Position numbers and translations under genes: made by a program
Notes under the pieces: model-generated
Databases searched by the model: none
What the model saw: only the letters and a program-made list of their open reading frames with translations
Told to the model about the DNA's origin: nothing
Source: Candidatus Daviesbacteria bacterium
GTDB lineage: Bacteria; Patescibacteriota; Microgenomatia; Daviesbacterales; UBA10151
Assembly: GCA_030699125.1 (NCBI GenBank)
Contig: JAUYKM010000009.1
Location: forward strand, 6,358-70,357
Direction: 5' to 3'
DNA: 64,000 nucleotides
Part shown: piece after piece, positions 14,328-63,463 of the stretch
Position numbering within the stretch: the stretch's first letter is position 1
Layout: every line of letters begins with the position of its first letter

Positions 14328-14642
14328 GTGATAAATCCAGAAATAGCTAATAAGTGGATTTTGAGAACAAGAAAAGGATTTGATGTGACTATAGACTCTA
14401 GGGATAGTATGGAAGGCCTATCTTGGGATATATTACGAAAATGGCAAAAAGAATTTCAAGAGGATTTTTGCAAAGATTGCATAAATTTCGACTTAGATAG
14501 ACAATATTTTATTAACAAAGACCACCCAAATAATCTACAGGATTGTATTTCTCATTGGACAGATATTGTTGGGGTATGTTGGAATTTTAAACACCGGGTA
14601 ACCGGGGAAAGCATTGATCAACTATTACGGAGTTTTAAATAA
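14328..14642 (+). CDS. Hypothetical protein (104 aa, Cys/His/Trp-rich)
   Basis: ORF followed by a GC hairpin terminator. Confidence 0.35.
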   Translation: MINPEIANKWILRTRKGFDVTIDSRDSMEGLSWDILRKWQKEFQEDFCKDCINFDLDRQYFINKDHPNNLQDCISHWTDIVGVCWNFKHRVTGESIDQLLRSFK

Positions 14643-14668
14643 TCTAAATCTATCAACCCACAAAAAAA

Positions 14669-14690
14669 CTCGCGCGAGGCGAGTTTTCTT
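14669..14690 (+). terminator. Intrinsic terminator built from a GC-rich CGAGGCGAG-family palindrome (CTCGCGCGAGGCGAG followed by TTTTCTT)
   Basis: Stem CTCGC/GCGAG, then a T-run. The same motif is inserted inside two CDSs elsewhere in the window. Confidence 0.5.
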
Positions 14691-14805
14691 GCAAACTTGC
14701 TATTATACAAGCAACAAAATTTATAACAGAATGAAATTTTCCCGTCAAGTATAACAAACCGGATCATCTATTTACTATTGGGTTTTTACTATTTAAAATG
14801 AGTCT

Positions 14806-15261
14806 ATGGTGGTTTATCTGGCAACAGATCATGCAGGGCTTGAATTAAAAGAAAAAGTTAAAAAATTTCTGCAAGATTCAGGGTATGAAGTGGTAGATTG
14901 TGGTGCACATCAGCTTGATCCAGAAGATGATTACCCTGATTTTATCTCCAAAGCTGCCGAAGCCGTTTCTAAAAATCCGGATTCTAAGGCCATAATCTTG
15001 GGAGGTTCAGGCCAGGGAGAAGCAATGGTTGCCAATAAATTCTCAGAAGTGAGGGCTGTTGTTTATTATGGTGGACAACTGGAGATGCCAGAATTAACCC
15101 GTCAACATAATGATGCCAATATTTTATCATTGGGAGCCAGATTTGTTACGGAAGAAGATGCCCTGAAAGCTGTTAAATTATTTTTGGATACTTCTTTTAC
15201 CAATGAAGAAAGACACATCAGAAGAATTAAGAAGATTAAAAAAATAGAAGAGTCTCACTAA
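14806..15261 (+). CDS. rpiB: Ribose-5-phosphate isomerase B
   Basis: 151 aa LacAB/RpiB fold. VVYLATDHAGLELKEK N-terminus. Confidence 0.85.
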   Translation: MVVYLATDHAGLELKEKVKKFLQDSGYEVVDCGAHQLDPEDDYPDFISKAAEAVSKNPDSKAIILGGSGQGEAMVANKFSEVRAVVYYGGQLEMPELTRQHNDANILSLGARFVTEEDALKAVKLFLDTSFTNEERHIRRIKKIKKIEESH

Positions 15262-31153: not shown

Positions 31154-33721
31154 TCAACTTTTTCTAAATAGATTAAAGATAGGTGTGACAACGAGCATAC
31201 GCATAATAAATAGTAAGAATATACCTACTCCCAAAAGTAGTCCCCAATCCATAAGAGTTAATGGATGGACTTTAAAAAGTTGCTGTAAAGTTACCCCGGC
31301 GAAGGAGATTGGCAGATACAAAATTAAAAGTTGTAAGATCAGGGAACCTGTTATTGCCAAGACTAGAAATGGATTGGAGAAAAAGGGTAGTTTGTACTCT
31401 GAGCGGATGGCTACAATCCTTAACATTTCATAAAAAACAATGGCGGTAAAAACCATAGTTTGTTCATAAATGGGATCTTTTTGATAGATAAAGAAGATCA
31501 AAAGAATCGCAATGGTCAAAAGAACACTAACCGCCATTAATGGTCCTAAAAATCTGCCTCCGGCAATTTCTTCCCTGAATTTTTGCGGGGGAAGATCCAT
31601 AATATTTTTTCTGGGTGGATCAACCCCCAAAGCTATGGCTGGTAAACCATCAGTGACTAAATTAATCCATAAAAGGTGAATTGGCAAAAGCGGTAGATGT
31701 CCTCCTCCTAAAATAACTGCCAAAGATATGACCAAAACTTCCATGATATTTGAAGAGAGTAAATAATTAACAAATTTTCTGATGTTATCAAAAATGGCCC
31801 TACCCTCTTTGATAGCCTCAACAATTGTCGAGAAATGATCATCCAGTAAGACCATATCAGAGGCTTCTTTGGCCACATCTGTCCCGGTAATACCCATGGC
31901 TACCCCAATATCAGCAGCCTTTAGGGCTGGAGCATCATTAACCCCATCTCCTGTCATGGCCACCTGGTGCCCGTGTGCTTTCAAAGCTTTAATAATTCTG
32001 ATTTTGTGTTCCGGGTTAACTCTGGCATAAATTGCAATTTGCTCCACCTGCTCTTTTAATGCTTCATCGGATAATTTATCCAAGTCTTGACCGGTGATAT
32101 TTTTACCCTCAATGCCAATTTGGCTGGCAATAGCCTGCGCAGTTAAGAGATGATCACCTGTGATCATAACCACCCTGATTTGCGCCTGTTTCTGACAAAC
32201 CTCGATTGCCTGTTTCACCCCTTCTCTTGGTGGATCAATCATCCCGACAAGCCCTAAGAATGTGAGGTTTTCTTCTTTTTCGGAAGAACCATAAGCAATA
32301 GCCAATACTCTTAAAGCTTTCCTGGCCATTTCATCATTTGCTTTAAGAATCTTCATCTTTTGCTCCTCAGTCAAATTTGAACACTTTCCCAAAATAACTT
32401 CAGTGGCCCCCTTACTAATTAATATTTGCCCTTCTTTGTTTTTTACTATTACTGACATCATCTTTCTGTCAGAAGAAAAAGGGATCTCAGAAATTCTTTG
32501 ATAAGTTTTTAAAATTGTTTCTTGGTTTAAACCCGAATCTACGGCTGCCTGAATTAAGGCAGCCTCTGTTGAATCACCAATTATTTGGCCCGCTTCGCCG
32601 CGAGGCGAGCCCCCATTTATTCTGGCATTAGAGGCAAGTAAACCAAAGGTTAAGATTTTTTCTTTATTCTCCCCGAAGATCTCTGTTACCTTCATTACCC
32701 CTTCAGTTAAAGTTCCTGTTTTATCAACGCAAATTACATCTGTTGATCCCAGTGTTTCTGCAGCTGCCAAATGTCTAATCAGAGATTTTTGTTTAAGTAG
32801 TCTCCTGGTTCCTAAGGCTAGGGAAATAGTCACCACCACCGGTAATCCTTCCGGAATAGCTGCTACAGCTAAAGCTATAGCCGAAATTAAAGAATCGAGT
32901 ACATTTTGTCCAAACCCAGTCTGACTGGGTCCAAACAAAAATTGTTCAATTCCAATTAAAGCTGCAATAACAAGTACAATCCTGCCAATTAATTTGCCCA
33001 GATTGTTAAGTTTAAGCTGTAAAGGAGTGGGTGGTTCTATCTCTTGGGAAACCAAATGGGCAATTTTACCAATCTCAGTGCTCATACCTGTGGATATGAC
33101 AATGCCGATACCTCGACCCGCAGCAATGTTGGTACCTGAAAAAAGCATATTTTTCCGCTCAGCCAAAATTACATCTTCAGCTAAAGTGTCAGGATCTTTA
33201 GTCACCGGAGTCGACTCCCCGGTGAGTGAGGCTTCATTAGTTTCCAGACTAAAGGCTTGAATAATTCTAATATCAGCAGGAATTTTTTGTCCTTCCTCTA
33301 AAACAATCAAATCGCCGGGTACTAAATTGGAACTGGCAACCTGCTGGATCACTCCGTCTCTGTAAATACTGGCTTGAACCGTCACCAGTTTTTTAAGCTG
33401 TTTGATAGTTTTTTCAACCCTGTATTCCTGGATAAAACCGACAATGCCGTTTAAAATAACAATTGCCAAAATCAAGGCTGCATCTAAAGTTTCGCCCAAA
33501 ATAAGAGATACTGAAGAGGCTATTAGCAGAATAATAATAAGAAAGCTTCTAAATTGAGAAAAGAAAATCTGAAAAGCACTTTTACCTTTTTCCTCTTGTA
33601 AAATATTTAGACCATATTTTGTAAGTCTTTTTTCTGCCTCTTGAGCTGTTAAGCCTTTTTGTTGATCAGTTTGTAGTTCTTGTATGGTCTGCTCAACTGA
33701 TTTCAGATATGCCTTTTCCAC
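31154..33721 (-). CDS. P2-type cation-transporting ATPase (Ca2+/Mg2+-type)
   Basis: TGES, ICVDKTGTLT, PEGLP (type II hallmark) and MTGDGVNDAPALK. Contains a 29-bp GC-rich in-frame insertion encoding GGSPRGEAGQ. Confidence 0.85.
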   Translation of the reverse strand: MEKAYLKSVEQTIQELQTDQQKGLTAQEAEKRLTKYGLNILQEEKGKSAFQIFFSQFRSFLIIILLIASSVSLILGETLDAALILAIVILNGIVGFIQEYRVEKTIKQLKKLVTVQASIYRDGVIQQVASSNLVPGDLIVLEEGQKIPADIRIIQAFSLETNEASLTGESTPVTKDPDTLAEDVILAERKNMLFSGTNIAAGRGIGIVISTGMSTEIGKIAHLVSQEIEPPTPLQLKLNNLGKLIGRIVLVIAALIGIEQFLFGPSQTGFGQNVLDSLISAIALAVAAIPEGLPVVVTISLALGTRRLLKQKSLIRHLAAAETLGSTDVICVDKTGTLTEGVMKVTEIFGENKEKILTFGLLASNARINGGSPRGEAGQIIGDSTEAALIQAAVDSGLNQETILKTYQRISEIPFSSDRKMMSVIVKNKEGQILISKGATEVILGKCSNLTEEQKMKILKANDEMARKALRVLAIAYGSSEKEENLTFLGLVGMIDPPREGVKQAIEVCQKQAQIRVVMITGDHLLTAQAIASQIGIEGKNITGQDLDKLSDEALKEQVEQIAIYARVNPEHKIRIIKALKAHGHQVAMTGDGVNDAPALKAADIGVAMGITGTDVAKEASDMVLLDDHFSTIVEAIKEGRAIFDNIRKFVNYLLSSNIMEVLVISLAVILGGGHLPLLPIHLLWINLVTDGLPAIALGVDPPRKNIMDLPPQKFREEIAGGRFLGPLMAVSVLLTIAILLIFFIYQKDPIYEQTMVFTAIVFYEMLRIVAIRSEYKLPFFSNPFLVLAITGSLILQLLILYLPISFAGVTLQQLFKVHPLTLMDWGLLLGVGIFLLFIMRMLVVTPIFNLFRKS
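32587..32615 (+). repeat. GC-rich mini-element (CGAGGCGAG family) inserted in frame in the P-type ATPase
   Basis: GGCCCGCTTCGCCGCGAGGCGAGCCCCC within AT-rich coding sequence. The same core appears at 14669-14683 and 52861-52890. Confidence 0.6.
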
Positions 33722-35337: not shown

Positions 35338-36108
35338 GTGAATATTTTTGAAGTGCTGGCTCATGAAGGGGAAGAAGTTGTCGAGGTAGTTGTTCTCAGA
35401 CTGGATGAGGTTATCCGTACTAACTCCATCAACTATACTATCTGGGCTTTTGTGGCTCTGGCTGCTTTGACTTTTTTATCAATTATCTTAAAAAGATGGC
35501 CCTCTTTGAGGATTTTTTTATTTTTAGGCTTTATTCTGGTAATTCTTGGCAATACTCTTTACTTAATTGGTTCCACTCTTTATTTAAATAAGGAGTCTCA
35601 GAGCGGCGGTCCTGTTCACTATCATGCAGATTTTGAAATATATAGATGTGGACAGAAAATTGATTTGAAGGATCCTGAAGGATTATCCAATAAAGTAGGT
35701 ACCAATGTTATTCATGAGCATGGAGATGACAGGATTCACATAGAAGGAGTGCTTTTGGATAAACATGATGCCTCTTTAGGTCATTTTTTTGCAGAATTGG
35801 GGGGGAGTATGGATGGGAATCATCTTACTGTATCAACTAACAAAAGTCTTCTGACTTTACAAAATGGAGACTTATGCAACGGCCGGCCGGCGCTCTTCCA
35901 AGTTTTTGTTTATCAAACCAAAGGTGAACGTTATTTCCAGCAAAAAATAACTGAAAACCCGGAAGATTATATTATTTCTCCTGAGGGTAACATTCCACCG
36001 GGTGATTGTGTAATTTTAGAATTAGATGCTCTTAAAGACAGAACAGATAAATTGTGTGAACAATACTTATTAAAGAAGGAGACTGGAGAAATTAACAATG
36101 GGAATTGA
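35338..36108 (+). CDS. His-rich membrane-anchored protein, possible metal-binding protein
   Basis: Two TM, then HYHADFEIYRCG...HEHGDDRIHIEG. Confidence 0.4.
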   Translation: MNIFEVLAHEGEEVVEVVVLRLDEVIRTNSINYTIWAFVALAALTFLSIILKRWPSLRIFLFLGFILVILGNTLYLIGSTLYLNKESQSGGPVHYHADFEIYRCGQKIDLKDPEGLSNKVGTNVIHEHGDDRIHIEGVLLDKHDASLGHFFAELGGSMDGNHLTVSTNKSLLTLQNGDLCNGRPALFQVFVYQTKGERYFQQKITENPEDYIISPEGNIPPGDCVILELDALKDRTDKLCEQYLLKKETGEINNGN

Positions 36109-37888: not shown

Positions 37889-38863
37889 ATGATGAAAAGC
37901 CCTATGAAAAAATACCTTATTCTTGCGATACTACTGATAATATTTGATTCACTATTGATTTTTGATACTATTCATAAGTTTAACTCTGAGTTAGCTTCCC
38001 CTCTAACAAAAAGAGGGAAAATTCTAGGAACTAATATTTGGATACCAAATATGAATTTGGTGGTTCAGGCCTCTGATATGGAGATTAACGCCAAAGGAGT
38101 CCTTTTTATAGATAGTATAAATGGCAAAGTATTCTTCTCTAAAAATCCACACCAAAAACTACCTATTGCCTCTTTGGTGAAAGTGATGACAGTTTTGGTG
38201 GCTTTGGAATACAAAGATTGGGAAGATGAGTATTTAGTGAGTGATGGTGCTGCCGGGATGGAGCCGGATAAGATGCTTCTTATTCCCGGGGAAAAACTGA
38301 CGCTTGAGGAGTTGTTATACGGAATATTTTTAATCTCTGCCAATGATGCGGCAGAGGTGATAGCTGAGGGAACCCTTCGACCCATTCGAATGACTCAGGG
38401 CAAGCAAGCTCAGGGCAAGCAAGGGGATAGAGAGGAATTCATTCAACTGATGAATGCCAAAGCTAAACAATTAGGTATGCAAAATACTTATTTTGTTAAT
38501 CCCACCGGACTGGATGAAGATAGCGGAAATTCATATTCCACAGCTTATGATCTGGCAGTTTTGACCAGATATTTAGTTAAAAATTATCCTGAAGTGGTGG
38601 AAATTTCTCAAACAGAGCACATTATTTTACCGGCAACAGCCACCCATCAGGATTATGATATGTATTCCGGGATAAATTTATTAACTACCTATCCGGGGGT
38701 AGTGGGATTTAAAACAGGATATACCCCGGAGGCAGGATTAACATTAATTACTTTGGCCAGAAAGAATGGGCAGGAAGTTTTGGGGGTACTTCTGGGCTCG
38801 GAAAACAGAAGAGAAGAAGCCAAAGAACTTTTGGATTATAGTTTTAAAAAGCTGGGAAGTTAA
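37889..38863 (+). CDS. D-alanyl-D-alanine carboxypeptidase (peptidase S11), second paralog
   Basis: ASLVKVMT (SxxK), SANDAA (SxN) and KTGYT. Contains a 12-bp tandem duplication (QGKQAQGKQG). Confidence 0.8.
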   Translation: MMKSPMKKYLILAILLIIFDSLLIFDTIHKFNSELASPLTKRGKILGTNIWIPNMNLVVQASDMEINAKGVLFIDSINGKVFFSKNPHQKLPIASLVKVMTVLVALEYKDWEDEYLVSDGAAGMEPDKMLLIPGEKLTLEELLYGIFLISANDAAEVIAEGTLRPIRMTQGKQAQGKQGDREEFIQLMNAKAKQLGMQNTYFVNPTGLDEDSGNSYSTAYDLAVLTRYLVKNYPEVVEISQTEHIILPATATHQDYDMYSGINLLTTYPGVVGFKTGYTPEAGLTLITLARKNGQEVLGVLLGSENRREEAKELLDYSFKKLGS

Positions 38864-46532: not shown

Positions 46533-49199
46533 ATGAAAAAAACAAAAACCAGACAAAACAAACCAATCTTACAAATTATGGCCATGCCAAAAAGGTTTGG
46601 CAGGAAAAAAACTAATGGTGAACATAAAACTAATGGTCACGGGGTAGACGGCAGAGGATTTGAAGACAGATTCATTCCCAGGTATAAAAAAATGCCCCCA
46701 GTGCCCAAAGATTTGCCTGTTCCTACTTTTTCCGAATCATCCAATAAAATTTTACAGGAGAGATATCTTCTTAAAGGCGGGGATCTTAAGGTGGTAGAGA
46801 GTATCTCTGATCGGTTTTGGCATATTGCCTATGATATTGCCTCGGGAGATTTTGATTTTGGCTATAGTGAGAGTGAAGTTTATAAAAATGCTTTGGAATT
46901 TTATACCATGATGGTCAGGCAACAGTTCCTGCCCAATTCCCCCACCATTATGAATGCAGGTAAACAAAATGGTCTGCAGTATTCTGCCTGTTTTGTACTT
47001 CCGGTGGGAGATTCTTTACCGGAAATTTTCGATTCAGTAAAGTACGCAGCATTAATCCACCAGACAGGCGGTGGAACCGGATTTGCCTTTTCCCGCCTTA
47101 GACCTGCTGGCTCAGTAGTCCGCACCACCGGCGGAGTGGCTTCCGGGCCGGTATCTTTTTTACGGGTCTTTAATGCTGCCACTGAATCTATCAAACAGGG
47201 CGGTACCAGGAGAGGTGCTAATATGGGGATTTTAAGAATTGATCATCCTGATATTCTGGAATTTATCAGATGCAAAGCAGAGTTGGATGATATGAATAGG
47301 CCGGTTTTTGAAAAAATTGCTCCGCTTTTGCCTGATGATAAGGCCAAAAAATATTTTAAAACCATGCTTTTAGATAAGCAGATCTCCAACTTTAATATCT
47401 CCTGTGCAGTTACAGAAAAATTTATGGAGGCTTTGGAGGCAGGCGAAAATTATGACTTGATCGATCCTCACTCAGGCGAGGTGGTGGGGCAATTAAATGC
47501 CAAAGAGGTTTTTGATGAAATAGTGGAGAGAGCCTGGTCTACCGGTGATCCGGGATTAATTTTTATAGACAGAATTAATGATTCTCCGGCCAATCCGGTG
47601 CCCAAATTAGAAACTATTGAGAGTACCAATCCTTGTGGCGAGCAGCCTTTGGCTCCCTGGGATGCCTGTAATTTGGGTTCCGTTAATTTAGGTAAGTTTG
47701 TCCGCCAGCTGGCGGATGGCAGCTCTGATGTGGACTGGGAGGGATTGAAAGAGGTAACTCGCAAAGCAGTTCACTTTTTAGATAATGTAGTTCAGACCAA
47801 CCCTTATACTTTAAAACAAATTTATGATGAAGTTCACCAAAATAGGAGGATTGGTTTGGGGGTGATGGGTTGGGCAGATATGCTTTTCAAGCTGAAAATT
47901 CCCTATAATTCTGATCAGGCTTTGGAGTTGGCAGAAAAGGTGATGAGTTTTATCAACAATGAGGGTCACAAAATGTCAGAGGAGCTTTCGAAAGAAAAAG
48001 GATCTTTCCCTAGTTGGGCCAACTCAATTTATGCAGATTCTAAATCTTCTGCCTTTAAAAATAGAGCTTCTGTGTATGCTTATCAGGGGGGAAAACCGAT
48101 TAGAAATTCCACTGTCACCACCATTGCTCCTACCGGTACTATCTCCATTATCGGAGATTGTTCATCCGGAATTGAGCCTGTTTTTGCTCTTGCCTATATT
48201 CATAGGGCAAAATCAGTGGGGGATCAGTACAGGGTTTTGACCATTGCCAATGAGACTTTTGAGGAGATTGCCAAAGAAAAGGGTTTTTATTCTCCAGATT
48301 TGGCCCAAAAAGTTTTAGAACACGGTTCTGTAACAGGGTTATCGGAGGTGCCGGATGAGTGGCAAAAAGTTTTTATTACTGCACCGGAGATTGACCCGAT
48401 CACACATGTTAAAATGCAAGCCATCTTTCAAAAACATACAGATAATGGAGTCTCTAAAACTATTAATCTGCCTAACTCTTCTACGGTTGATGACGTGAGA
48501 ACTGCTTATTTGATGTCTTATCAGACCGGCTGTAATGGTATCACCATCTATAGGGATGGTTCCAAAAGTACCCAAGTTTTAAATGTCTCATCTACTTTGG
48601 AAAAGAAACAGACGGAGGAGTCAGCAGAAGCGGCACCAATTGCCCAAAGGCCCATGATACTTCGGGGCAGAACTTATAAAGTGGCAACACCTGTGGGTGA
48701 GGCGTATATTACCATTAACAGAGATGAAAACGAACAGCCCTTTGAAGTCTTTGTGACTGTGGGTAAGGGCGGGATGCATACTATGGCAGATGCGGAAGCC
48801 ATGGGAAGACTGGTTTCTCTTTCTTTAAGGCTAGGTAGAAATGGCGGATCAACTGATCCTCGGGAGGTGGCTCAAAAGATTGCTTCTCAGCTGAAAGGAA
48901 TTGGCGGAGCTTCATCTGTAGGATTTGGGAAAAATAGGGTGATGAGTTTGGCTGATGCTATTGCTAAGGTGTTGGCTGAGGATTTGGCAGTTTCTGCTGA
49001 TGTAGAAGTGGTGGAACAAGTGCCCTTAAATCTGACTAATGGAGAAGCCAAAGAGGTTAATTCTGAGTCTGTTTCTGATCCGGCTACCAATTACCAACTA
49101 GCTACTAATGTAGATTTATGTCCGGAGTGCGGTTCAGCCTCATTTGTGATGGAAGAAGGCTGTAAAAAATGCCACTCCTGCGGATATTCCATGTGTTAG
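46533..49199 (+). CDS. nrdJ: Class II (adenosylcobalamin-dependent) ribonucleoside-triphosphate/diphosphate reductase
   Basis: TNPCGEQPL active-site motif and a C-terminal Cys-rich zinc ribbon. The track ORF starts at 46410 inside nrdR, so the ATG at 46533 is preferred. Confidence 0.85.
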   Translation: MKKTKTRQNKPILQIMAMPKRFGRKKTNGEHKTNGHGVDGRGFEDRFIPRYKKMPPVPKDLPVPTFSESSNKILQERYLLKGGDLKVVESISDRFWHIAYDIASGDFDFGYSESEVYKNALEFYTMMVRQQFLPNSPTIMNAGKQNGLQYSACFVLPVGDSLPEIFDSVKYAALIHQTGGGTGFAFSRLRPAGSVVRTTGGVASGPVSFLRVFNAATESIKQGGTRRGANMGILRIDHPDILEFIRCKAELDDMNRPVFEKIAPLLPDDKAKKYFKTMLLDKQISNFNISCAVTEKFMEALEAGENYDLIDPHSGEVVGQLNAKEVFDEIVERAWSTGDPGLIFIDRINDSPANPVPKLETIESTNPCGEQPLAPWDACNLGSVNLGKFVRQLADGSSDVDWEGLKEVTRKAVHFLDNVVQTNPYTLKQIYDEVHQNRRIGLGVMGWADMLFKLKIPYNSDQALELAEKVMSFINNEGHKMSEELSKEKGSFPSWANSIYADSKSSAFKNRASVYAYQGGKPIRNSTVTTIAPTGTISIIGDCSSGIEPVFALAYIHRAKSVGDQYRVLTIANETFEEIAKEKGFYSPDLAQKVLEHGSVTGLSEVPDEWQKVFITAPEIDPITHVKMQAIFQKHTDNGVSKTINLPNSSTVDDVRTAYLMSYQTGCNGITIYRDGSKSTQVLNVSSTLEKKQTEESAEAAPIAQRPMILRGRTYKVATPVGEAYITINRDENEQPFEVFVTVGKGGMHTMADAEAMGRLVSLSLRLGRNGGSTDPREVAQKIASQLKGIGGASSVGFGKNRVMSLADAIAKVLAEDLAVSADVEVVEQVPLNLTNGEAKEVNSESVSDPATNYQLATNVDLCPECGSASFVMEEGCKKCHSCGYSMC

Positions 49200-49618: not shown

Positions 49619-49737
49619 AAATACCTGCTGATTTATATGTTAAAATCTTCTCGTGGATTCTAAAAAAGGATTAATGATTATATCTATTGATGAAGAGAAG
49701 AGGAAGATAACGGTTGTTTGAGCCTTAAGAAAACCAA

Positions 49738-50508
49738 ATATCCGCAGGTGTCAATACAGATACACCCCAAGGGTGTACATACAATATAAACTTTACTCCT
49801 CCTCCAACAACTGATGTTTTATTAGTTCTAACTTTTGGGCGTATTCCACACGTTCAAGAACAAATTCCTTATAATCTTCGGGGGATTTAAAAAAATTTAG
49901 GATTTCTTCTTTAGCGCAAAAGCCATCTTTTACCAGTCCAACATATTCCGGATATGAAGACCAACGATAATCTTTTAAATCCTTCACTAGAAGTGATGCA
50001 ATCGGGTTTAAGTGAATATAACGTGAGACATGAATTAACTGTTCATCAGATTCAATTAAAACAGCTTTGAATTCCCCCTGTAATAAAGGCCCAACTCTTC
50101 TGTACTTAACATTGTAGTATTTGGTATAGCTATTGCTAAGTTTACTGATAAATTCAGTAATTCCGCCATCTTTAAGTTGTCTAATAAGAAGATGGAAATG
50201 GTTTGGCATTAGACAATAGCAGATAATGTCCACGATTTTTTTGTTTGAATCGGGTTTAATAATAGAATTTGGTGAGAATCTGGAGAATCTTGGCTTGGGT
50301 CCTAATAATTGGTAATAGGTGATCGTCTTAATAAATCTTGAATAATCCCAATTTTTTTCAAATATTCTTCTTTTCTCTACACCTCGGTTATAAATATGGT
50401 AAAAATGACCGTTAACAAATGGAAAAATTCTGGAAGGCATTTGAACCTATCGTACTCTCAATATCCGCAGGTGTCAATACAAAAACACCCCAAGGGTGTA
50501 CATACAAT
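49738..50508 (-). mobile_element. IS200/IS605-like element: a Y1 transposase flanked by 48-bp near-identical direct subterminal repeats carrying a GTACACCC-AA-GGGTGTAC hairpin
   Basis: Repeats at 49738-49785 and 50461-50508 differ at 3 positions. Same-strand hairpins at both ends fit the IS200/IS605 LE/RE architecture. Confidence 0.6.
49793..50440 (-). CDS. Y1 HUH tyrosine transposase (IS200/IS605 TnpA or RAYT-like)
   Basis: HUH motif NHFHLLI and catalytic Tyr in YIHLNP. Paralog of the 34562..35236 gene. Confidence 0.7.
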   Translation of the reverse strand: MPSRIFPFVNGHFYHIYNRGVEKRRIFEKNWDYSRFIKTITYYQLLGPKPRFSRFSPNSIIKPDSNKKIVDIICYCLMPNHFHLLIRQLKDGGITEFISKLSNSYTKYYNVKYRRVGPLLQGEFKAVLIESDEQLIHVSRYIHLNPIASLLVKDLKDYRWSSYPEYVGLVKDGFCAKEEILNFFKSPEDYKEFVLERVEYAQKLELIKHQLLEEE

Positions 50509-51108: not shown

Positions 51109-53577
51109 ATGACTGATTTTATTAAACCATCATTATCTTCACAATCGCCGATTAAGCTCAAACCAACCATGGCCGTGGGGCCTTTAAGGGATACAGTAAT
51201 TTTTCCTGGCAATTCCGTACCAATTATTTCCGGCAGACCTAAGTCCAAAGCTGCCCTGGATGCTTCTTGGAATTCTGATAAATTGATTGTTTTTGTCACT
51301 CAAAAAAATTCCAAAATTGAGGATCCCAGCGAAAAAGATTTATATAAAGTAGGCACAGTCTGTTTGATCAGGAGAGTGGTAAAAAATCCGGAGGGTGAAT
51401 ATACCCTTCAGGCAGAAGGATTATCCCGAGTTTATTTAAAATCCTTTACCCAGACCCAAGCCTATCTTGAGGCAGAAATTGAGGAGATCCCCGAGCTTTA
51501 CGAAAGATCAGAACAAACAGAGGCCCAGGTTCGAACAGTCAAAGAACAAGTTAAAAGATATCTGGAGCTTGGCGGCAATCCCTTCTTTGATCAGAGTGCT
51601 TTTACCAACTGGTCCATCTTTACCTACACAGATGATCCCAACCAGCTGGTTAACTCAGTTGCGCAAGTAATTGATTTTAAAACCATAGATAAGCAGCAGA
51701 TTTTGGAAATGGTATCTGCGCAGGAGAGACTACAAAGATTATCCGAGCTTTTAGCCAAAGAAATTAGAGTGATGGAGATTTCCCAAAAAATTTCTTCTCA
51801 AACTAACGAGAGAGTTTCCCGTATGACCAAAGAGGCTATTTTGAGAGAACAGATGAAAAGCATTGAAGAAGAGTTAGGGGAAGGATCAGAAAATCAGGAG
51901 ATTCACGAATTTGAGTCAAAAATTAAAAAGAGCGGCATGCCAAAAGAGGTGGCGGAACGGGCCAAGAAAGAGCTATCCAGATTAGCCAAGATGTCATCTT
52001 ATAATCCTGAGGCAGGCTACATTAGAAATTATCTGGAATGGTTGACTGATTTAGTTTGGAAAATGGGGAAAAAGGCCAAAATTAATCTTAAAATTGCTGA
52101 AAATATCTTAGATGAAGACCATTATGGATTAAAAAAAGTTAAGGAAAGGATTCTGGAGTATCTGGCTGTTCATAAACTGGCAGGCAAAATGAGAGGACCA
52201 ATCCTTTGTTTTGTGGGACCCCCAGGAACAGGGAAAACATCCATTGGTAAATCCATTGCCAGAGCCTTGGGAAGGAAGTTTGTCAAAGTTTCTTTGGGAG
52301 GCATTAGGGATGAGGCGGAAATCCGCGGCCATAGGAGAACTTATGTGGGATCCATGCCAGGCAGAATTATTCAGGGAATAAAACAGGCAGGGGCAGTTAA
52401 TCCGGTTTTTATGCTGGATGAGATTGACAAATTAGGTTTGGATTATCGGGGTGATCCATCAGCCGCATTACTCGAAGCATTGGATCCGGAGCAAAACGAG
52501 GGTTTCTCTGATCACTACCTGGAAGTGCCTTTTGATCTGTCTAACGCCATGTTTATTACCACTGCCAATATTTTAGACACCATCCCTCCAGCTCTAAGAG
52601 ATAGACTTGAGGTAATCAGATATCCGGGTTATACAGAAGACGAGAAATTCCATATTGCTAAAAAGTTTTTAATTCCCAAACAGATTGACAATCATGGATT
52701 AAAAACTAACCAGATTGAGTTTAGCGACGAAGCGATATATTCTGTAATTAGAGAATATACTAGGGAGGCAGGGGTGAGAAATCTGGAAAGAGAGCTTTCT
52801 GCGGTGATGAGAAAAGTGGCCAGAAAAATAGCTGAAGGTAATGGAGAGGCCCGCCTGCCCGCTTCGCCGGAGCTTCAGCGAGGCGAGCCGGACGGGCAGG
52901 TGAAAAAGTTTAATCCGGATGATATTCATAAATTCCTAGGTCCTGTTAAATTCTTACCACAGCTGGCTGAGATTGAAGATACAGTGGGTATGACTACTGG
53001 TTTATCTGTGACAGAAGCAGGGGGAGAGATTTTATTTATTGAGGTGACTCTGATGCCAGGAAAAGGTATCTTGCTTTTAACCGGACAATTAGGTGAGGTT
53101 ATGAAAGAGTCAGGACAGGCTGCTATGTCGTATGTCAGAGCTCACTGGAGAGAGTTGGGATTGTCTGAGAGATTTTTCCATAAGGTAGATGTTCATGTGC
53201 ATGTACCTGAGGGAGCCATCCCCAAAGACGGCCCATCAGCTGGTATTGCTTTAACTACAGCCATTGTTTCTGCTTTCAGTAGAATTCCGGTTCATAAAGA
53301 AGTGGCTATGACCGGGGAAGTGACTTTGCGCGGCAGAGTTTTGGAAATAGGCGGATTTAAAGAGAAAGTTTTGGCTGCTCACAGAGCCGGGGTAAGGGTT
53401 ATCATTGCACCTTCAGATAACCAGAAGGATCTGGAAGATATTCCTGACTTTATACAAAAAGATCTAAGATTTGTTTTTGTTAAACACATGGATGATGTTT
53501 TAAAAGTAGCCTTAATTCATTCTCCCAAGCCAGTCCAGCATAAAACAGTCCCCATCACTCCGGCATACCTGGCCTAA
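51109..53577 (+). CDS. lon: ATP-dependent Lon protease
   Basis: N-terminal LON domain, AAA+ GPPGTGKTS and protease PKDGPSAG with catalytic Ser. Contains a 52-bp GC-rich in-frame insertion. Confidence 0.9.
52849..52900 (+). repeat. GC-rich palindromic mini-element (CGAGGCGAG family, with outer CCTGCCCG/CGGGCAGG arms) inserted in frame in lon
   Basis: GCCCGCCTGCCCGCTTCGCCGGAGCTTCAGCGAGGCGAGCCGGACGGGCAGG encodes [17 protein letters not shown]. Confidence 0.6.
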
Positions 53578-56031: not shown

Positions 56032-56047
56032 AGCCTATTTCAAAACT

Positions 56048-56119
56048 GTCATTCCCGCGTATGCGGGAATCCAATTAACAGATTTTATTAAATGGATCCC
56101 TGCCTTCGCAGGGATGACA
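56048..56119 (+). mobile_element. Cargo-less MITE-like element: two family-B hairpins in inverted orientation (GTCATTCCCGCGTATGCGGGAATCCAATTAA ... GGATCCCTGCCTTCGCAGGGATGAC)
   Basis: Same terminal inverted repeats as those flanking the GIY-YIG gene at 63108-63463. Confidence 0.55.
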
Positions 56120-63107: not shown

Positions 63108-63463
63108 ATTAGATTATGTCATTCCTGCGAATGCAGGAATCCAATTAACAGATGTATTATTATGTCTATATTTTGGCAAGTGGAATAAATGGCACTTTGT
63201 ATATAGGTGTTACAGATAATTTAGTCAGAAGGGTTTGGGAACATAAACATGATTTGGTAGAAGGATTTACCAAAAAGTACGATATACATGATCTTGTATA
63301 TTATGGGCAACACCAAGACATTAATGAGGCCATTTTAAGAGAAAAACAAATGAAGAAGTGGAAAAGATATTGGAAAATAAAACTGATTAATAAGATGAAT
63401 CCAAAATGGAAAGATTTATATATTTCTATTGTTTAATTGGATCCCCGCCTACGCGGGGATGAC
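63108..63463 (+). mobile_element. 356-bp element with terminal inverted repeats carrying a GIY-YIG nuclease gene as cargo
   Basis: Left end GTCATTCCTGCGAATGCAGGAATCCAATTAA. Right end TTAATTGGATCCCCGCCTACGCGGGGATGAC. Each end is itself a hairpin. A cargo-less copy lies at 56048-56119. Confidence 0.55.
63152..63436 (+). CDS. GIY-YIG nuclease family protein (YhbQ/UPF0213-like)
   Basis: YYVYILASGINGTLYIGVTDNLVRRVWEHK is a GIY-YIG core. 94 aa. Confidence 0.75.
   Translation: MYYYVYILASGINGTLYIGVTDNLVRRVWEHKHDLVEGFTKKYDIHDLVYYGQHQDINEAILREKQMKKWKRYWKIKLINKMNPKWKDLYISIV

What the first reader, a model, noticed from the sequence alone, without database searches (positions are those of the whole stretch)
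32587..32615. Second mini-element family (CGAGGCGAG core) inserted in frame in the P2-type ATPase
GGCCCGCTTCGCCGCGAGGCGAGCCCCC encodes GGSPRGEAGQ inside the cytoplasmic domain of the P-type ATPase. The GCTTCGCC...CGAGGCGAG core recurs in lon at 52861-52890. It also forms the stem of the intrinsic terminator after ORF 14328..14642, at 14669-14690. So the same element serves as a terminator when intergenic and as peptide-coding sequence when intragenic.
Basis: seen in the sequence. Interest (0 to 1): 0.7.

Follow-up and report, generated by a model that had tools for sequence, protein, structure and literature searches.

The report
Tiny GC-rich hairpin insertions inside genes

Summary
The sequences are real. 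The window comes from a Candidatus Daviesbacteria (CPR) contig of about 38% GC.

- **ATPase copy.** CCCGCTTCGCCGCGAGGCGAG (32589-32609) is a clean 21-nt, 7-aa insertion (SPRGEAG, not 10 aa). It sits in the N-domain loop of a P2-type Ca-ATPase and is absent from its closest orthologues.
- **Lon copy.** The lon insert is 51 nt (17 aa) in the linker between the lid and protease domains. A 30-nt copy of the same element (52858-52887) is nested in the loop of a different 21-nt palindrome. The sister lon gene has that outer palindrome alone.
- **The family.** An exact-arm scan found more than 95 copies with unrelated flanks. They occur in many CPR classes and in Nitrospirota, Bacteroidota, Omnitrophota, Planctomycetota and Chelativorans isolates.
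  - Lengths fall into classes of 21, 24, 27 and 30 nt.
  - 56 of 95 copies lie inside long ORFs, and all six reading frames are used.
  - There is no target duplication; insertion falls between a purine and a pyrimidine.
  - Copies often sit in the loops of other palindromes.
- **The terminator.** The hairpin at 14669-14690 is not a copy. It is an old, vertically conserved hairpin, and the shared 11-mer is at chance level.

Best reading: a non-autonomous mini insertion element, tolerated in protein loops. Its mobilising enzyme is unknown. No description of it was found in the literature searched.

The parts
32589..32609 (+). Canonical 21-nt element CCCGCTTCGCCGCGAGGCGAG. The orientation is defined by the CCC end. 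It is read antisense by the ATPase gene as (G/D)-SPRGEAG.
   Evidence: DNA alignment with the orthologues L001, L003 (filled) and L004, L005 (empty) gives exactly 21 extra nt between GA and Y of an Asp codon, with no target duplication. The same 21-mer is found in 13 other genomes.
31154..33721 (-). Host gene: a P2-type (PMCA/LMCA1-like) Ca2+-ATPase of 855 aa. The insert is at aa 370-376, in the N-domain loop just before the GD(S/P)TE motif.
   Evidence: 100% identical to a Candidatus Daviesbacteria protein. Pfam PF13246 spans residues 362-449. The closest solved structure is Listeria LMCA1, whose loop here is of comparable length.
52858..52887 (+). Canonical 30-nt element CCCGCTTCGCCG-GAGCTTCAG-CGAGGCGAG. 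It has the same arms as the ATPase copy plus a 9-nt loop module. It is read in sense by lon as [10 protein letters not shown].
   Evidence: It is absent from the sister gene in L006, which has the outer palindrome only. The identical 30-mer is found in at least 10 other genomes of several phyla.
52849..52857 (+). 5' half (GCCCGCCTG) of the outer 21-nt palindrome of the CCTGCC...GGCAGG family that hosts the 30-mer.
   Evidence: L006 has GCCCGCCTGCCGGACGGGCAG uninterrupted, and L007 has neither insert; empty and filled outer palindromes occur in other genomes; the two lon genes are sisters.
52888..52899 (+). 3' half (CCGGACGGGCAG) of the outer palindrome.
51109..53577 (+). Host gene lon, 822 aa (orthologues are 803-812 aa). 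The composite 17-aa insert is at aa 581-597, in the linker between the AAA+ lid and the protease domain.
   Evidence: Pfam places Lon_lid at 528-578 and Lon_C at 603-803.
14665..14687 (+). NOT a member of the family. This is a conserved terminator-like hairpin, AAAA-CTCGC-GCGAG-GCGAG-TTTT, downstream of ORF 14328..14642. It is listed only because the finding claimed it.
   Evidence: folds at -10.1 kcal/mol, z = -2.6. (the shared 11-mer is at chance level). (orthologous hairpins in L127, L128, L131 and L132 have loop variants and compensatory stem changes).

Best explanation
**What it is.** The two intragenic GC islands are copies of one dispersed family of very small (21-30 nt) GC-rich imperfect palindromes. 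The consensus is CCC-GCTTCGCC-(loop of 0, 3, 6 or 9 extra nt)-GGCGAG, with a fixed T bulge or G.T position that gives the element polarity.

**How it behaves (shown).**
- It enters DNA as a discrete unit, without target-site duplication.
- It inserts between a purine and a pyrimidine.
- It often lands in the loop region of other small palindromes, as in lon.
- It can later be absent again, cleanly.

**Why copies survive inside genes (shown and inferred).** A copy persists in an essential gene when its length is a multiple of three, the frame used has no stop, and the site is a surface loop or an inter-domain linker. It is then simply translated as 7-17 residues rich in Gly, Pro, Arg, Ala, Ser and Glu. 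I infer no benefit to the host: it behaves as selfish or neutral DNA.

**Mechanism (inferred).** The element is too small to encode anything, so I infer it is mobilised in trans by a nuclease or transposase that recognises hairpins in single-stranded DNA. That enzyme has not been identified. The terminator at 14669-14690 is unrelated.
For: **The inserts are real.**
- Orthologue alignments show clean 21-nt and 51-nt indels.
- The lon series is empty (L007), then outer only (L006, the sister gene), then outer plus inner (window).

**A dispersed unit with discrete ends.**
From them, 93 copies in low-GC genomes had unrelated flanks, and the window's two bring the set analysed to 95.
- Lengths fall into classes of 21, 24, 27 and 30 nt.
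- The base before the element is a purine in 76 of 76 copies. The base after it is a pyrimidine in 67 of 76.

**Constraint is on the DNA, not the peptide.**
- All six reading frames are used.
- In the frame where the canonical loop gives TGA, the loop carries a variant.
- Synonymous sites inside the ATPase copy are 6 of 6 identical between the window and L003, against 0.53 in the rest of the gene (P = 0.02). The adjacent third codon position differs in all three carriers.
- The gene's GC3 is 0.33, yet the insert uses GC-ending codons.

**Gain and loss.** The carriers P0001, P0003 and P0027 are not monophyletic. P0002, the sister of P0001 at 90% identity, and P0004 both lack the insert.

**Selection on reading frame.** 53 of 56 coding copies are multiples of three, against 22 of 32 intergenic copies.

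**Nesting.** About 20 of 95 copies sit inside CCTGCC...GGCAGG palindromes, in two registers (TG^CCGG and CCGG^CA). Others sit inside GTCATTCCCG...CGGGAATC hairpins.

**Tolerated sites.** The ATPase insert is in an N-domain loop. The lon insert is in the linker between lid and protease domains.

**Other hosts.** Judged from their translated sequences, the hosts of other copies are housekeeping genes (GyrA, LeuRS, IleRS, ArgRS, transketolase, CopA, FtsK). Only LeuRS and IlvD were checked against solved structures. The LeuRS insert is clear against the T. thermophilus enzyme; the IlvD case is ambiguous.
Against: - No mobilising enzyme was found. No gene family recurs next to the copies.
- The IS200-like Y1 transposase in the window is flanked by different repeats.
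- The GIY-YIG gene in the window is flanked by GTCAT-type hairpins, not by this element.
- There is no orientation bias relative to local GC skew (50:45) or gene strand (48:47). A strictly lagging-strand, IS200/IS605-type mechanism would predict a bias.
- Copy number is low. The window has 2 copies in 64 kb. There was 1 relaxed copy in 337 kb of unselected relatives and 7 extra in 630 kb of host loci.
- The same insertion site in three non-sister ATPase genes needs one of three things: repeated precise loss, strong site preference, or recombination. These are not resolved.
Divergence within the family and its total abundance are therefore unknown.
- 'Coding' was called from stop-free ORFs of at least 150 codons. 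It was not checked by homology, except for the few cases named above.
Confidence: 0.72

Rival explanations
1. The hairpin is a recognition signal rather than a transposon-like element. It would resemble the Neisseria NTS/SRM hairpins cut by Ssn nucleases, or DNA-uptake sequences. Insert-bearing alleles would then spread among relatives by natural transformation and homologous recombination, not by transposition.
For: - The architecture parallels NTS: a conserved 3-nt 5' tag (CCC), then a hairpin, then a C immediately after it (one search compared with PMC11893778).
- The same genome carries an Ssn-type GIY-YIG gene flanked by NTS-like hairpins.
- Copies nest inside such hairpins.
- The patchy distribution among ATPase orthologues would fit allelic exchange.
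- From my own knowledge, CPR bacteria are thought to rely on DNA uptake.
Against: - Density is far too low for an uptake signal, roughly one copy per 30-90 kb.
- It does not match the SRM search motif and has no GTCAT tag.
- No ssn-like gene is flanked by it.
- Recombination cannot explain arrival at non-homologous sites in more than 95 unrelated contexts and in several phyla.
- P0027 is only about 70% identical in DNA to the window gene, which makes homologous exchange unlikely.
Confidence: 0.12
2. The inserts are by-products of repair or replication. Hairpin tips break or stall, and the gap is filled by template switching to another GC-rich hairpin elsewhere. Palindromes would then grow like Russian dolls without any dedicated enzyme.
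For: - Three levels of nesting are seen: GCTNNAGC inside GCTTCGCC...GGCGAGC inside CCTGCC...GGCAGG.
- There are no target duplications.
- There is no associated gene.
- There is no strand bias.
Against: - The same ends (CCC... and ...GAG) recur in 95 copies with unrelated flanks. Random template switching would give ragged ends.
- Identical 24-mers and 30-mers occur in different phyla.
- The ATPase site is not a palindrome.
Confidence: 0.08
3. The element is a functional RNA or DNA structure used by the host: a terminator or attenuator when intergenic, and a structured or peptide-coding module when intragenic.
For: - Each copy can form a hairpin.
- The 14669 hairpin with its T-run shares an 11-mer with the element.
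Against: - The 14669 hairpin is an independent, conserved structure, and the shared 11-mer is at chance level.
- Intergenic copies rarely have T-runs: 4 of 32.
- Sense and antisense orientations in genes are equal, 27:29.
- Hairpin stability is unremarkable for the composition, with z between -0.7 and -1.6 for the bare elements.
- The closest orthologues work without the insert.
Confidence: 0.04
4. The similarity is chance: GC-rich codon runs in variable protein loops.
For: Both sites are loops of variable length among homologues.
Against: - The two copies share 24 of 24 arm bases.
- The inserts are clean indels made of exactly the canonical 21-mer and 30-mer, which recur elsewhere.
- Shuffles give 0 matches.
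Confidence: 0.01

Closest known systems
Rickettsia palindromic elements (RPE; Ogata et al. 2000, as summarised in PMC3184786 and PMC3733652)
   Same: Palindromic repeats inserted in frame into many unrelated housekeeping genes. They are translated as extra peptide segments at tolerated sites, with no known benefit.
   Different: - RPEs are about 105-146 bp and confined to Rickettsia.
- This family is 21-30 nt, unrelated in sequence, and present in many phyla.
- It also nests inside other palindromes.
REP / REPIN elements with RAYT (Y1 HUH) transposases, including intragenic REPs (PMC3733652, PMC3116915)
   Same: Imperfect GC-rich hairpins of 20-40 nt with a polarity-giving asymmetry. Some copies lie inside genes and encode short peptides. 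There is no target duplication.
   Different: - It has no GTAG or CGTC tag.
- It is not organised as inverted doublets.
- Copy number is low.
- It is not species-specific.
- The Y1 transposase gene in the window is flanked by a different repeat.
- Most copies are intragenic, 56 of 95.
NTS / Ssn-related motifs (SRM) with single-domain GIY-YIG ssDNA nucleases (Chenal et al. 2025, PMC11893778)
   Same: A hairpin of 20-50 nt with a short conserved 5' tag and a C after the stem. It occurs in several phyla. An SRM-ssn-SRM unit is present in this very window (63117-63463), and the element is sometimes nested in SRM-like hairpins.
   Different: - It does not fit the SRM search motif.
- It has no GTCAT tag.
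- No ssn-like gene is flanked by it.
Small dispersed repeats (SDR) of Nostocaceae (Elhai et al. 2008, Genome Res 18:1484). The paper is not held; it is cited in PMC3116915 and PMC5861425, and its details are from my own knowledge.
   Same: Very small (21-27 nt) hairpin-forming dispersed repeats that appear mobile, nest inside one another, and have no known enzyme.
   Different: - SDRs were reported only in Nostocaceae (PMC5861425).
- Their sequences are unrelated.
- This family is cross-phylum and is mostly found in frame inside genes.
GC clusters of yeast mitochondrial DNA (PMC4478555)
   Same: Short GC-rich palindromic mobile sequences in a very AT-rich genome. From my own knowledge, some lie inside coding sequence.
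   Different: They are organellar and eukaryotic, with different sequence classes. From my own knowledge, several classes have target-site signatures. No homology is implied.

Membership tests
Rickettsia palindromic elements (RPE) | Length about 105-146 bp with an RPE consensus sequence; genus Rickettsia | tested here: not met
   The elements are 21 and 30 nt. The host is Candidatus Daviesbacteria.
Rickettsia palindromic elements (RPE) | In-frame insertion into protein-coding genes at tolerated sites | tested here: met
REP / REPIN-RAYT | Imperfect palindrome of 20-40 nt | tested here: met
REP / REPIN-RAYT | Conserved GTAG (or CGTC) tetranucleotide tag at one end | tested here: not met
   There is no GTAG or CTAC in or next to either copy. 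The only GACG lies in the loop of the outer lon palindrome, not at an end.
REP / REPIN-RAYT | A RAYT (Y1 transposase) gene flanked by the cognate repeat | tested here: not met
   The Y1_Tnp ORF 49793..50440 is flanked by unrelated 48-69-nt direct repeats. No recurrent gene lies next to the copies.
REP / REPIN-RAYT | Mostly extragenic, high copy number, inverted doublets | tested here: not met
   56 of 95 copies are inside long ORFs. Density is low. Copies are single units.
NTS / SRM-Ssn | Match to the SRM search motif HGTCWY...RNCYNB | tested here: not met
   The regular expression finds no match on either strand of either element.
NTS / SRM-Ssn | A single-domain GIY-YIG (ssn) gene flanked by the motif | tested here: not met
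   The window's GIY-YIG ORF (63149..63436, PF01541) is flanked by GTCAT-type hairpins. No GIY-YIG-like ORF lies near the 95 copies. The pattern search used there is only moderately sensitive.
Cyanobacterial small dispersed repeats (SDR) | Dispersed hairpin repeats of 21-27 nt that nest in one another | tested here: met
   This is a resemblance in behaviour only.
Cyanobacterial small dispersed repeats (SDR) | SDR1-8 consensus sequences; Nostocaceae host | not testable with these tools
   The SDR sequences are not held. The host is not a cyanobacterium.
Intrinsic (rho-independent) terminator | GC-rich hairpin directly followed by a T-run, downstream of a gene | tested here: not met
   For 32589-32609 and 52858-52887: both are intragenic, with no T-run. 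Across the family, 4 of 32 intergenic copies have a T-run. The separate hairpin at 14665-14687 does meet the definition, but it is not a family member.
MITE | Terminal inverted repeats plus target-site duplication, usually longer than 50 bp, derived from an IS | tested here: not met
   No duplication is seen at any of the three empty-versus-filled site pairs. The element is 21-30 nt.

The most novel reading that the evidence does not exclude
This is a cross-phylum family of some of the smallest mobile DNA known (21-30 nt). An as yet unidentified trans-acting machinery that recognises hairpins or single-stranded DNA moves it. It targets R^Y steps, especially the loops of other mini-palindromes, building nested 'Russian-doll' hairpins. 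Its main niche is the reading frames of essential genes in streamlined CPR genomes, where it continually adds and removes 7-17-residue loop segments. It would then be a general source of protein indels in these lineages.
Probability: 0.35. Interest if true: 0.8.

Novelty: new variant of a known kind. Interest (0 to 1): 0.6.

Why it matters
- **Protein evolution in small genomes.** It would show that even the most streamlined bacterial genomes (CPR, about 1 Mb) carry selfish mini-palindromes inside essential genes. Many of the odd Gly/Pro/Arg/Ala-rich loop inserts and 'hypothetical' peptides in metagenome-derived proteins would then have a DNA-level origin.
- **A mechanistic question.** A 21-30-nt unit with identical arms in CPR, Nitrospirota, Bacteroidota, Planctomycetota and Alphaproteobacteria implies either a very widespread mobilising activity or frequent horizontal spread. 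Identifying that activity is a concrete, testable problem, close to the recent discovery of Ssn nucleases.
- **Practical use.**
  - The inserts are markers for strain-level population genetics.
  - They are a trap for annotation and alignment pipelines.
  - They are a natural map of insertion-tolerant sites in proteins such as Lon, P-type ATPases, aminoacyl-tRNA synthetases and GyrA.

Tried and rejected
- **Rfam scan of the window.** It found only two tRNAs and nothing at the three sites.
- **Y1 transposase as the partner.** Rejected, because its flanking repeats are unrelated.
- **Membership in Ssn/SRM.** Rejected, because the motif does not match and no flanking ssn gene exists.
- **Replication- or transcription-strand bias.** None: 50:45 for GC skew, 48:47 for gene strand, and 27:29 for sense versus antisense in genes.
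- **Terminator function.** Rejected. The terminator scanner itself did not call 14669, because the T-run pairs with the A-run.
- **Recurrent neighbouring genes.** All-against-all BLAST of 86 flanking ORFs gave only two unrelated pairs.
- **Extra diverged copies.**
  - None in the window.
  - 1 in 337 kb of unselected relatives.
  - 7 in 630 kb of host loci.
- **Other GC islands in the window.** 35874-35900 and 47120-47151 are conserved coding sequence also present in orthologues, not inserts.
- **Literature.** Searches by keywords, DNA strings and peptide strings found no description of this family. The Elhai 2008 paper could not be read.
- **IlvD example (L021).** The alignment to solved structures was ambiguous about the insert.
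- **High-GC matches.** Matches from genomes of 0.64-0.74 GC with odd lengths were treated as chance. The Chelativorans copies are an exception, because they carry the exact canonical 30-mer.
Full report
**Origin of the window.** The ATPase and Lon proteins are 100% identical to proteins of a 360-kb contig of a Candidatus Daviesbacteria MAG (CPR/Patescibacteria, Microgenomates). The window is 35-44% GC, 0.38 overall. Short stretches of about 80% GC therefore stand out.

**Check of the observation.** The quoted sequences are at the stated places.
- ORF 31154..33721 (minus strand) is a P2-type Ca-ATPase. It has the domains Cation_ATPase_N, E1-E2_ATPase, Hydrolase, Cation_ATPase and Cation_ATPase_C, and it reads ...NGGSPRGEAGQIIGD... 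across the GC island.
- ORF 51109..53577 is lon.
- CGAGGCGAG occurs three times on the + strand against 0.05 expected.
- CCCGCTTCGCCG occurs twice against 0.01 expected.
- The ATPase and lon copies are identical over both arms (12 + 12 nt). They differ only by nine extra loop bases (GAGCTTCAG) in lon.

**The ATPase insert.** Among 36 orthologues, a 7-residue segment SPRGEAG is present only in the window protein, in P0003 (82% identical) and in P0027 (69%). It is absent from P0002 (about 90%), from P0004 and from about 30 others.
- At the DNA level the difference is exactly 21 nt. Empty sites read GG(A/G) GA(C/T) CAA. Filled sites carry CTCGCCTCGCGGCGAAGCGGG between GA and the third base of the Asp codon.
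- On the + strand this is CCCGCTTCGCCGCGAGGCGAG at 32589-32609. Nothing is duplicated at the junctions.
- The insert lies in the N-domain (PF13246, residues 362-449), in the loop before the GD(S/P)TE motif. Listeria LMCA1, the closest solved structure, also has a longer loop there.
- In a neighbour-joining tree the three carriers are not a clade. P0002 is the sister of the window protein and lacks the insert, and P0027 branches near the base of the group.
- The six synonymous positions inside the 21-mer are 6 of 6 identical between the window and L003, and 5 of 6 between the window and L001. Third positions in the rest of the gene are only 0.51-0.53 identical (P = 0.02 and 0.12). The next third position, just outside the element, differs in all three carriers.
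- So the constraint, or the youth of the insert, lies in the DNA unit and not in the peptide.

**The lon insert.** Thirty orthologues read ...AEGNGE-VKKF.... The window has 17 extra residues ([17 protein letters not shown]). The closest relative, P0122, has seven (ARLPDGQ).
- The DNA gives a three-step series:
  - L007 is empty (GAG|GTT).
  - L006 has a 21-nt palindrome, GCCCGCCTGCCGGACGGGCAG.
  - The window has that same palindrome with the 30-mer CCCGCTTCGCCGGAGCTTCAGCGAGGCGAG (52858-52887) inserted between CCTG and CCGG.
- The two lon genes are sisters. The outer insert is most simply shared, and the inner one came later or was lost from L006.
- The composite (52849-52899) falls between the Lon_lid domain (ends at residue 578) and Lon_C (starts at 603).
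- The outer palindrome belongs to a second family (CCTGCC...GGCAGG). That family makes its own 21-nt in-frame insert (DLPAGRQ) in the Peptidase_S11 gene of L001. The insert is absent from the window, L004 and L007.

- Matches from high-GC genomes have odd lengths and look like chance.
- The low-GC matches are dominated by CPR lineages: Daviesbacteria, Levybacteria, Saccharibacteria, Portnoy-, Giovannoni-, Moran-, Nomura-, Falkow-, Nealson-, Yanofsky- and Komeilibacteria.
- They also include Nitrospirota, Omnitrophota, Bacteroidota and Ignavibacteria, Planctomycetota and WOR-3. Their contig GC fits those phyla.
- Cultured Chelativorans isolates carry the exact canonical 30-mer.
- Nine IMG/VR contigs also carry copies.
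- Lengths cluster at 21, at 24 (loop AAT), at 27 (ACTCAG) and at 30 (GAGCTNNAG).
- Flanks are unrelated, apart from three positions: -1 is a purine in 76 of 76, -3 is a pyrimidine in 65 of 76, and +1 is a pyrimidine in 67 of 76.
- About 20 of 95 copies sit in CCTGCC...GGCAGG palindromes, in two registers (TG^CCGG as in lon, and CCGG^CA). The same loci hold 18 uninterrupted palindromes of that kind.
- Other copies sit inside GTCATTCCCG...CGGGAATC hairpins or, in Chelativorans, inside a larger inverted repeat.

**Coding versus intergenic copies.** Of 95 low-GC copies, 56 lie in stop-free ORFs of at least 150 codons, 32 in ORFs under 100 codons, and 7 are ambiguous.
- All six frames are used: [31 protein letters not shown], SPRxSSGEAG, [11 protein letters not shown] and [10 protein letters not shown].
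- In the frame where the canonical loop would read TGA, the loop is a variant (Y, W, L, S or F codons).
- Coding copies are multiples of three in 53 of 56 cases. Intergenic copies are in 22 of 32.
- Judged from their translated sequences, the hosts include GyrA, LeuRS, IleRS, ArgRS, IlvD, transketolase, a P1B ATPase and FtsK. Only two were checked against solved structures. The LeuRS insert is clear against the Thermus thermophilus enzyme. The IlvD case is ambiguous.

**The third site.** The hairpin at 14665-14687 (AAAA-CTCGC-GCGAG-GCGAG-TTTT) folds well and shares CGCGAGGCGAG with the ATPase copy.
- When any 11-mer of the two elements is allowed, a match elsewhere in the window is expected 0.51 times (P = 0.34).
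- Eighty related loci were fetched through the downstream gene. The orthologous intergenic region keeps the same flanks and the same hairpin. It has the loop ACAAG in L128 and L131, compensatory stem changes (CCCGC/GCGGG) in L132, and is identical in L127.
- It is therefore an old, vertically inherited, terminator-like hairpin in which two loop substitutions happen to create the shared string.
- Across the family, only 4 of 32 intergenic copies are followed by a T-run, against 9 of 56 coding copies.

**Mechanism: what is shown and what is inferred.**
- Shown:
  - discrete units with sharp ends;
  - no target duplication;
  - insertion at R^Y steps;
  - a preference for loops of other palindromes;
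  - clean presence or absence at orthologous sites;
  - conservation at the DNA level;
  - selection on reading frame.
- Inferred: mobilisation in trans by an enzyme that acts on hairpins in single-stranded DNA.
- Candidates of that general kind exist in the window. One is an IS200-like Y1 transposase (49793..50440). The other is an Ssn-type GIY-YIG nuclease (63149..63436), set between NTS-like hairpins as described by Chenal et al. 2025 (PMC11893778).
- Neither candidate is flanked by this element. No gene family recurs beside the 95 copies. The element fits neither the REP tags nor the SRM motif.
- There is no bias relative to GC skew or gene strand. This argues against a strict lagging-strand mechanism and against an RNA-level role.
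- Copy number is low.

**Comparison with known systems.**
- In-frame palindromic inserts are known from Rickettsia RPEs and from intragenic REPs (PMC3184786, PMC3733652).
- Very small nested dispersed repeats are known from Nostocaceae SDRs (Elhai 2008, cited in PMC3116915 and PMC5861425).
- GC-rich mobile palindromes in AT-rich genomes are known from yeast mitochondria (PMC4478555).
- Cross-phylum tagged hairpins are known from the Ssn/SRM system (PMC11893778).
- This family behaves like a blend of these but fails the defining tests of each (see the membership table). I found no description of it.

**Verdict.** It is a new variant of a known kind of element, of moderate to high interest. The open question is what moves it.

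Noticed in passing
window 63117-63463 (ORF 63149..63436 +): A 94-95-aa single-domain GIY-YIG ORF (PF01541, E = 5e-12). It is flanked by NTS/SRM-like hairpins: TGTCATTCCTGCGAATGCAGGAATCC upstream and GGATCCCCGCCTACGCGGGGATGAC downstream. This is the SRM-ssn-SRM arrangement described for Ssn single-strand nucleases (PMC11893778).
   Followed up: partly
window 56047-56083: Another NTS-like hairpin, TGTCATTCCCGCGTATGCGGGAATCCAATTAACAGAT. It is 92% identical to the copy at 63117-63153 and matches the 28-nt Neisseria NTS consensus at about 24 positions. It fails the published SRM search motif only at the last base.
   Followed up: partly
window 49717-50508 (ORF 49793..50440 -): An IS200-like Y1 transposase ORF (PF01797). 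It is bracketed by 69-nt direct repeats, 84% identical, that contain the hairpin ACACCC-CAA-GGGTGT. Homologous Y1 genes sit at the same place in L007 and next to the ATPase in L003, but are absent from L001.
   Followed up: partly
window about 38373-38419 (in Peptidase_S11 gene 37889..38863 +): A 15-aa in-frame insert, LRPIRMTQGKQAQGK, containing a tandem CTCAGGGCAAGCAAG x2. It is absent from the orthologues in L001, L004 and L007. It looks like yet another mini-element family inside a gene.
   Followed up: partly
L001:6543-6562: A perfect 20-nt palindrome, CCTGCCTGCCGGCAGGCAGG, which with one adjoining base makes a 21-nt (7-aa, DLPAGRQ) in-frame insert in Peptidase_S11. It is absent from the window, L004 and L007. 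It belongs to the same family as the outer palindrome in the window's lon.
   Followed up: yes
P0015 and P0097 (ATPase orthologues), alignment A1: Other orthologues carry different inserts about 30 residues upstream: VIASEAKQSQ...IASSSTPRNDN in P0015 and PARPADGPNGEAGVAG in P0097. They look like translations of further GC-rich hairpin repeats.
   Followed up: no
window 14655-14800 and L127, L128, L131, L132: The whole intergenic region upstream of ORF 14806..15261 is conserved among relatives. This includes CACAAAAAAA, the hairpin, TTTTCTTGAAAACCTAC and GGTCAAGTAG-ACAAAAT. That is more than a plain terminator would need, so it may be a regulatory region.
   Followed up: no
L062 (LeuRS), about 35 residues upstream of the element: A second insert of about 34 aa, QKISPPARGGEADAPAAAEGVGADGITAGEILNP, is absent from T. 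thermophilus LeuRS. It is again rich in Gly, Ala and Pro.
   Followed up: no
L014, L050 and L007 (assembly CAYNFQ01): Several MAGs titled 'uncultured Gammaproteobacteria' (binchicken, ERP and SRP TPA assemblies) encode Daviesbacteria-like proteins, for example a Lon 84% identical to the window's. Their taxonomic labels seem unreliable.
   Followed up: no
L031 and L034 (Chelativorans xinjiangense): In these isolates the canonical 30-mer lies at the centre of a larger inverted repeat (GACCCATTCCGTGAC...CCGG[30-mer]AATGGGTCCCGGACA). The element is therefore nested in a host-specific repeat there too.
   Followed up: no
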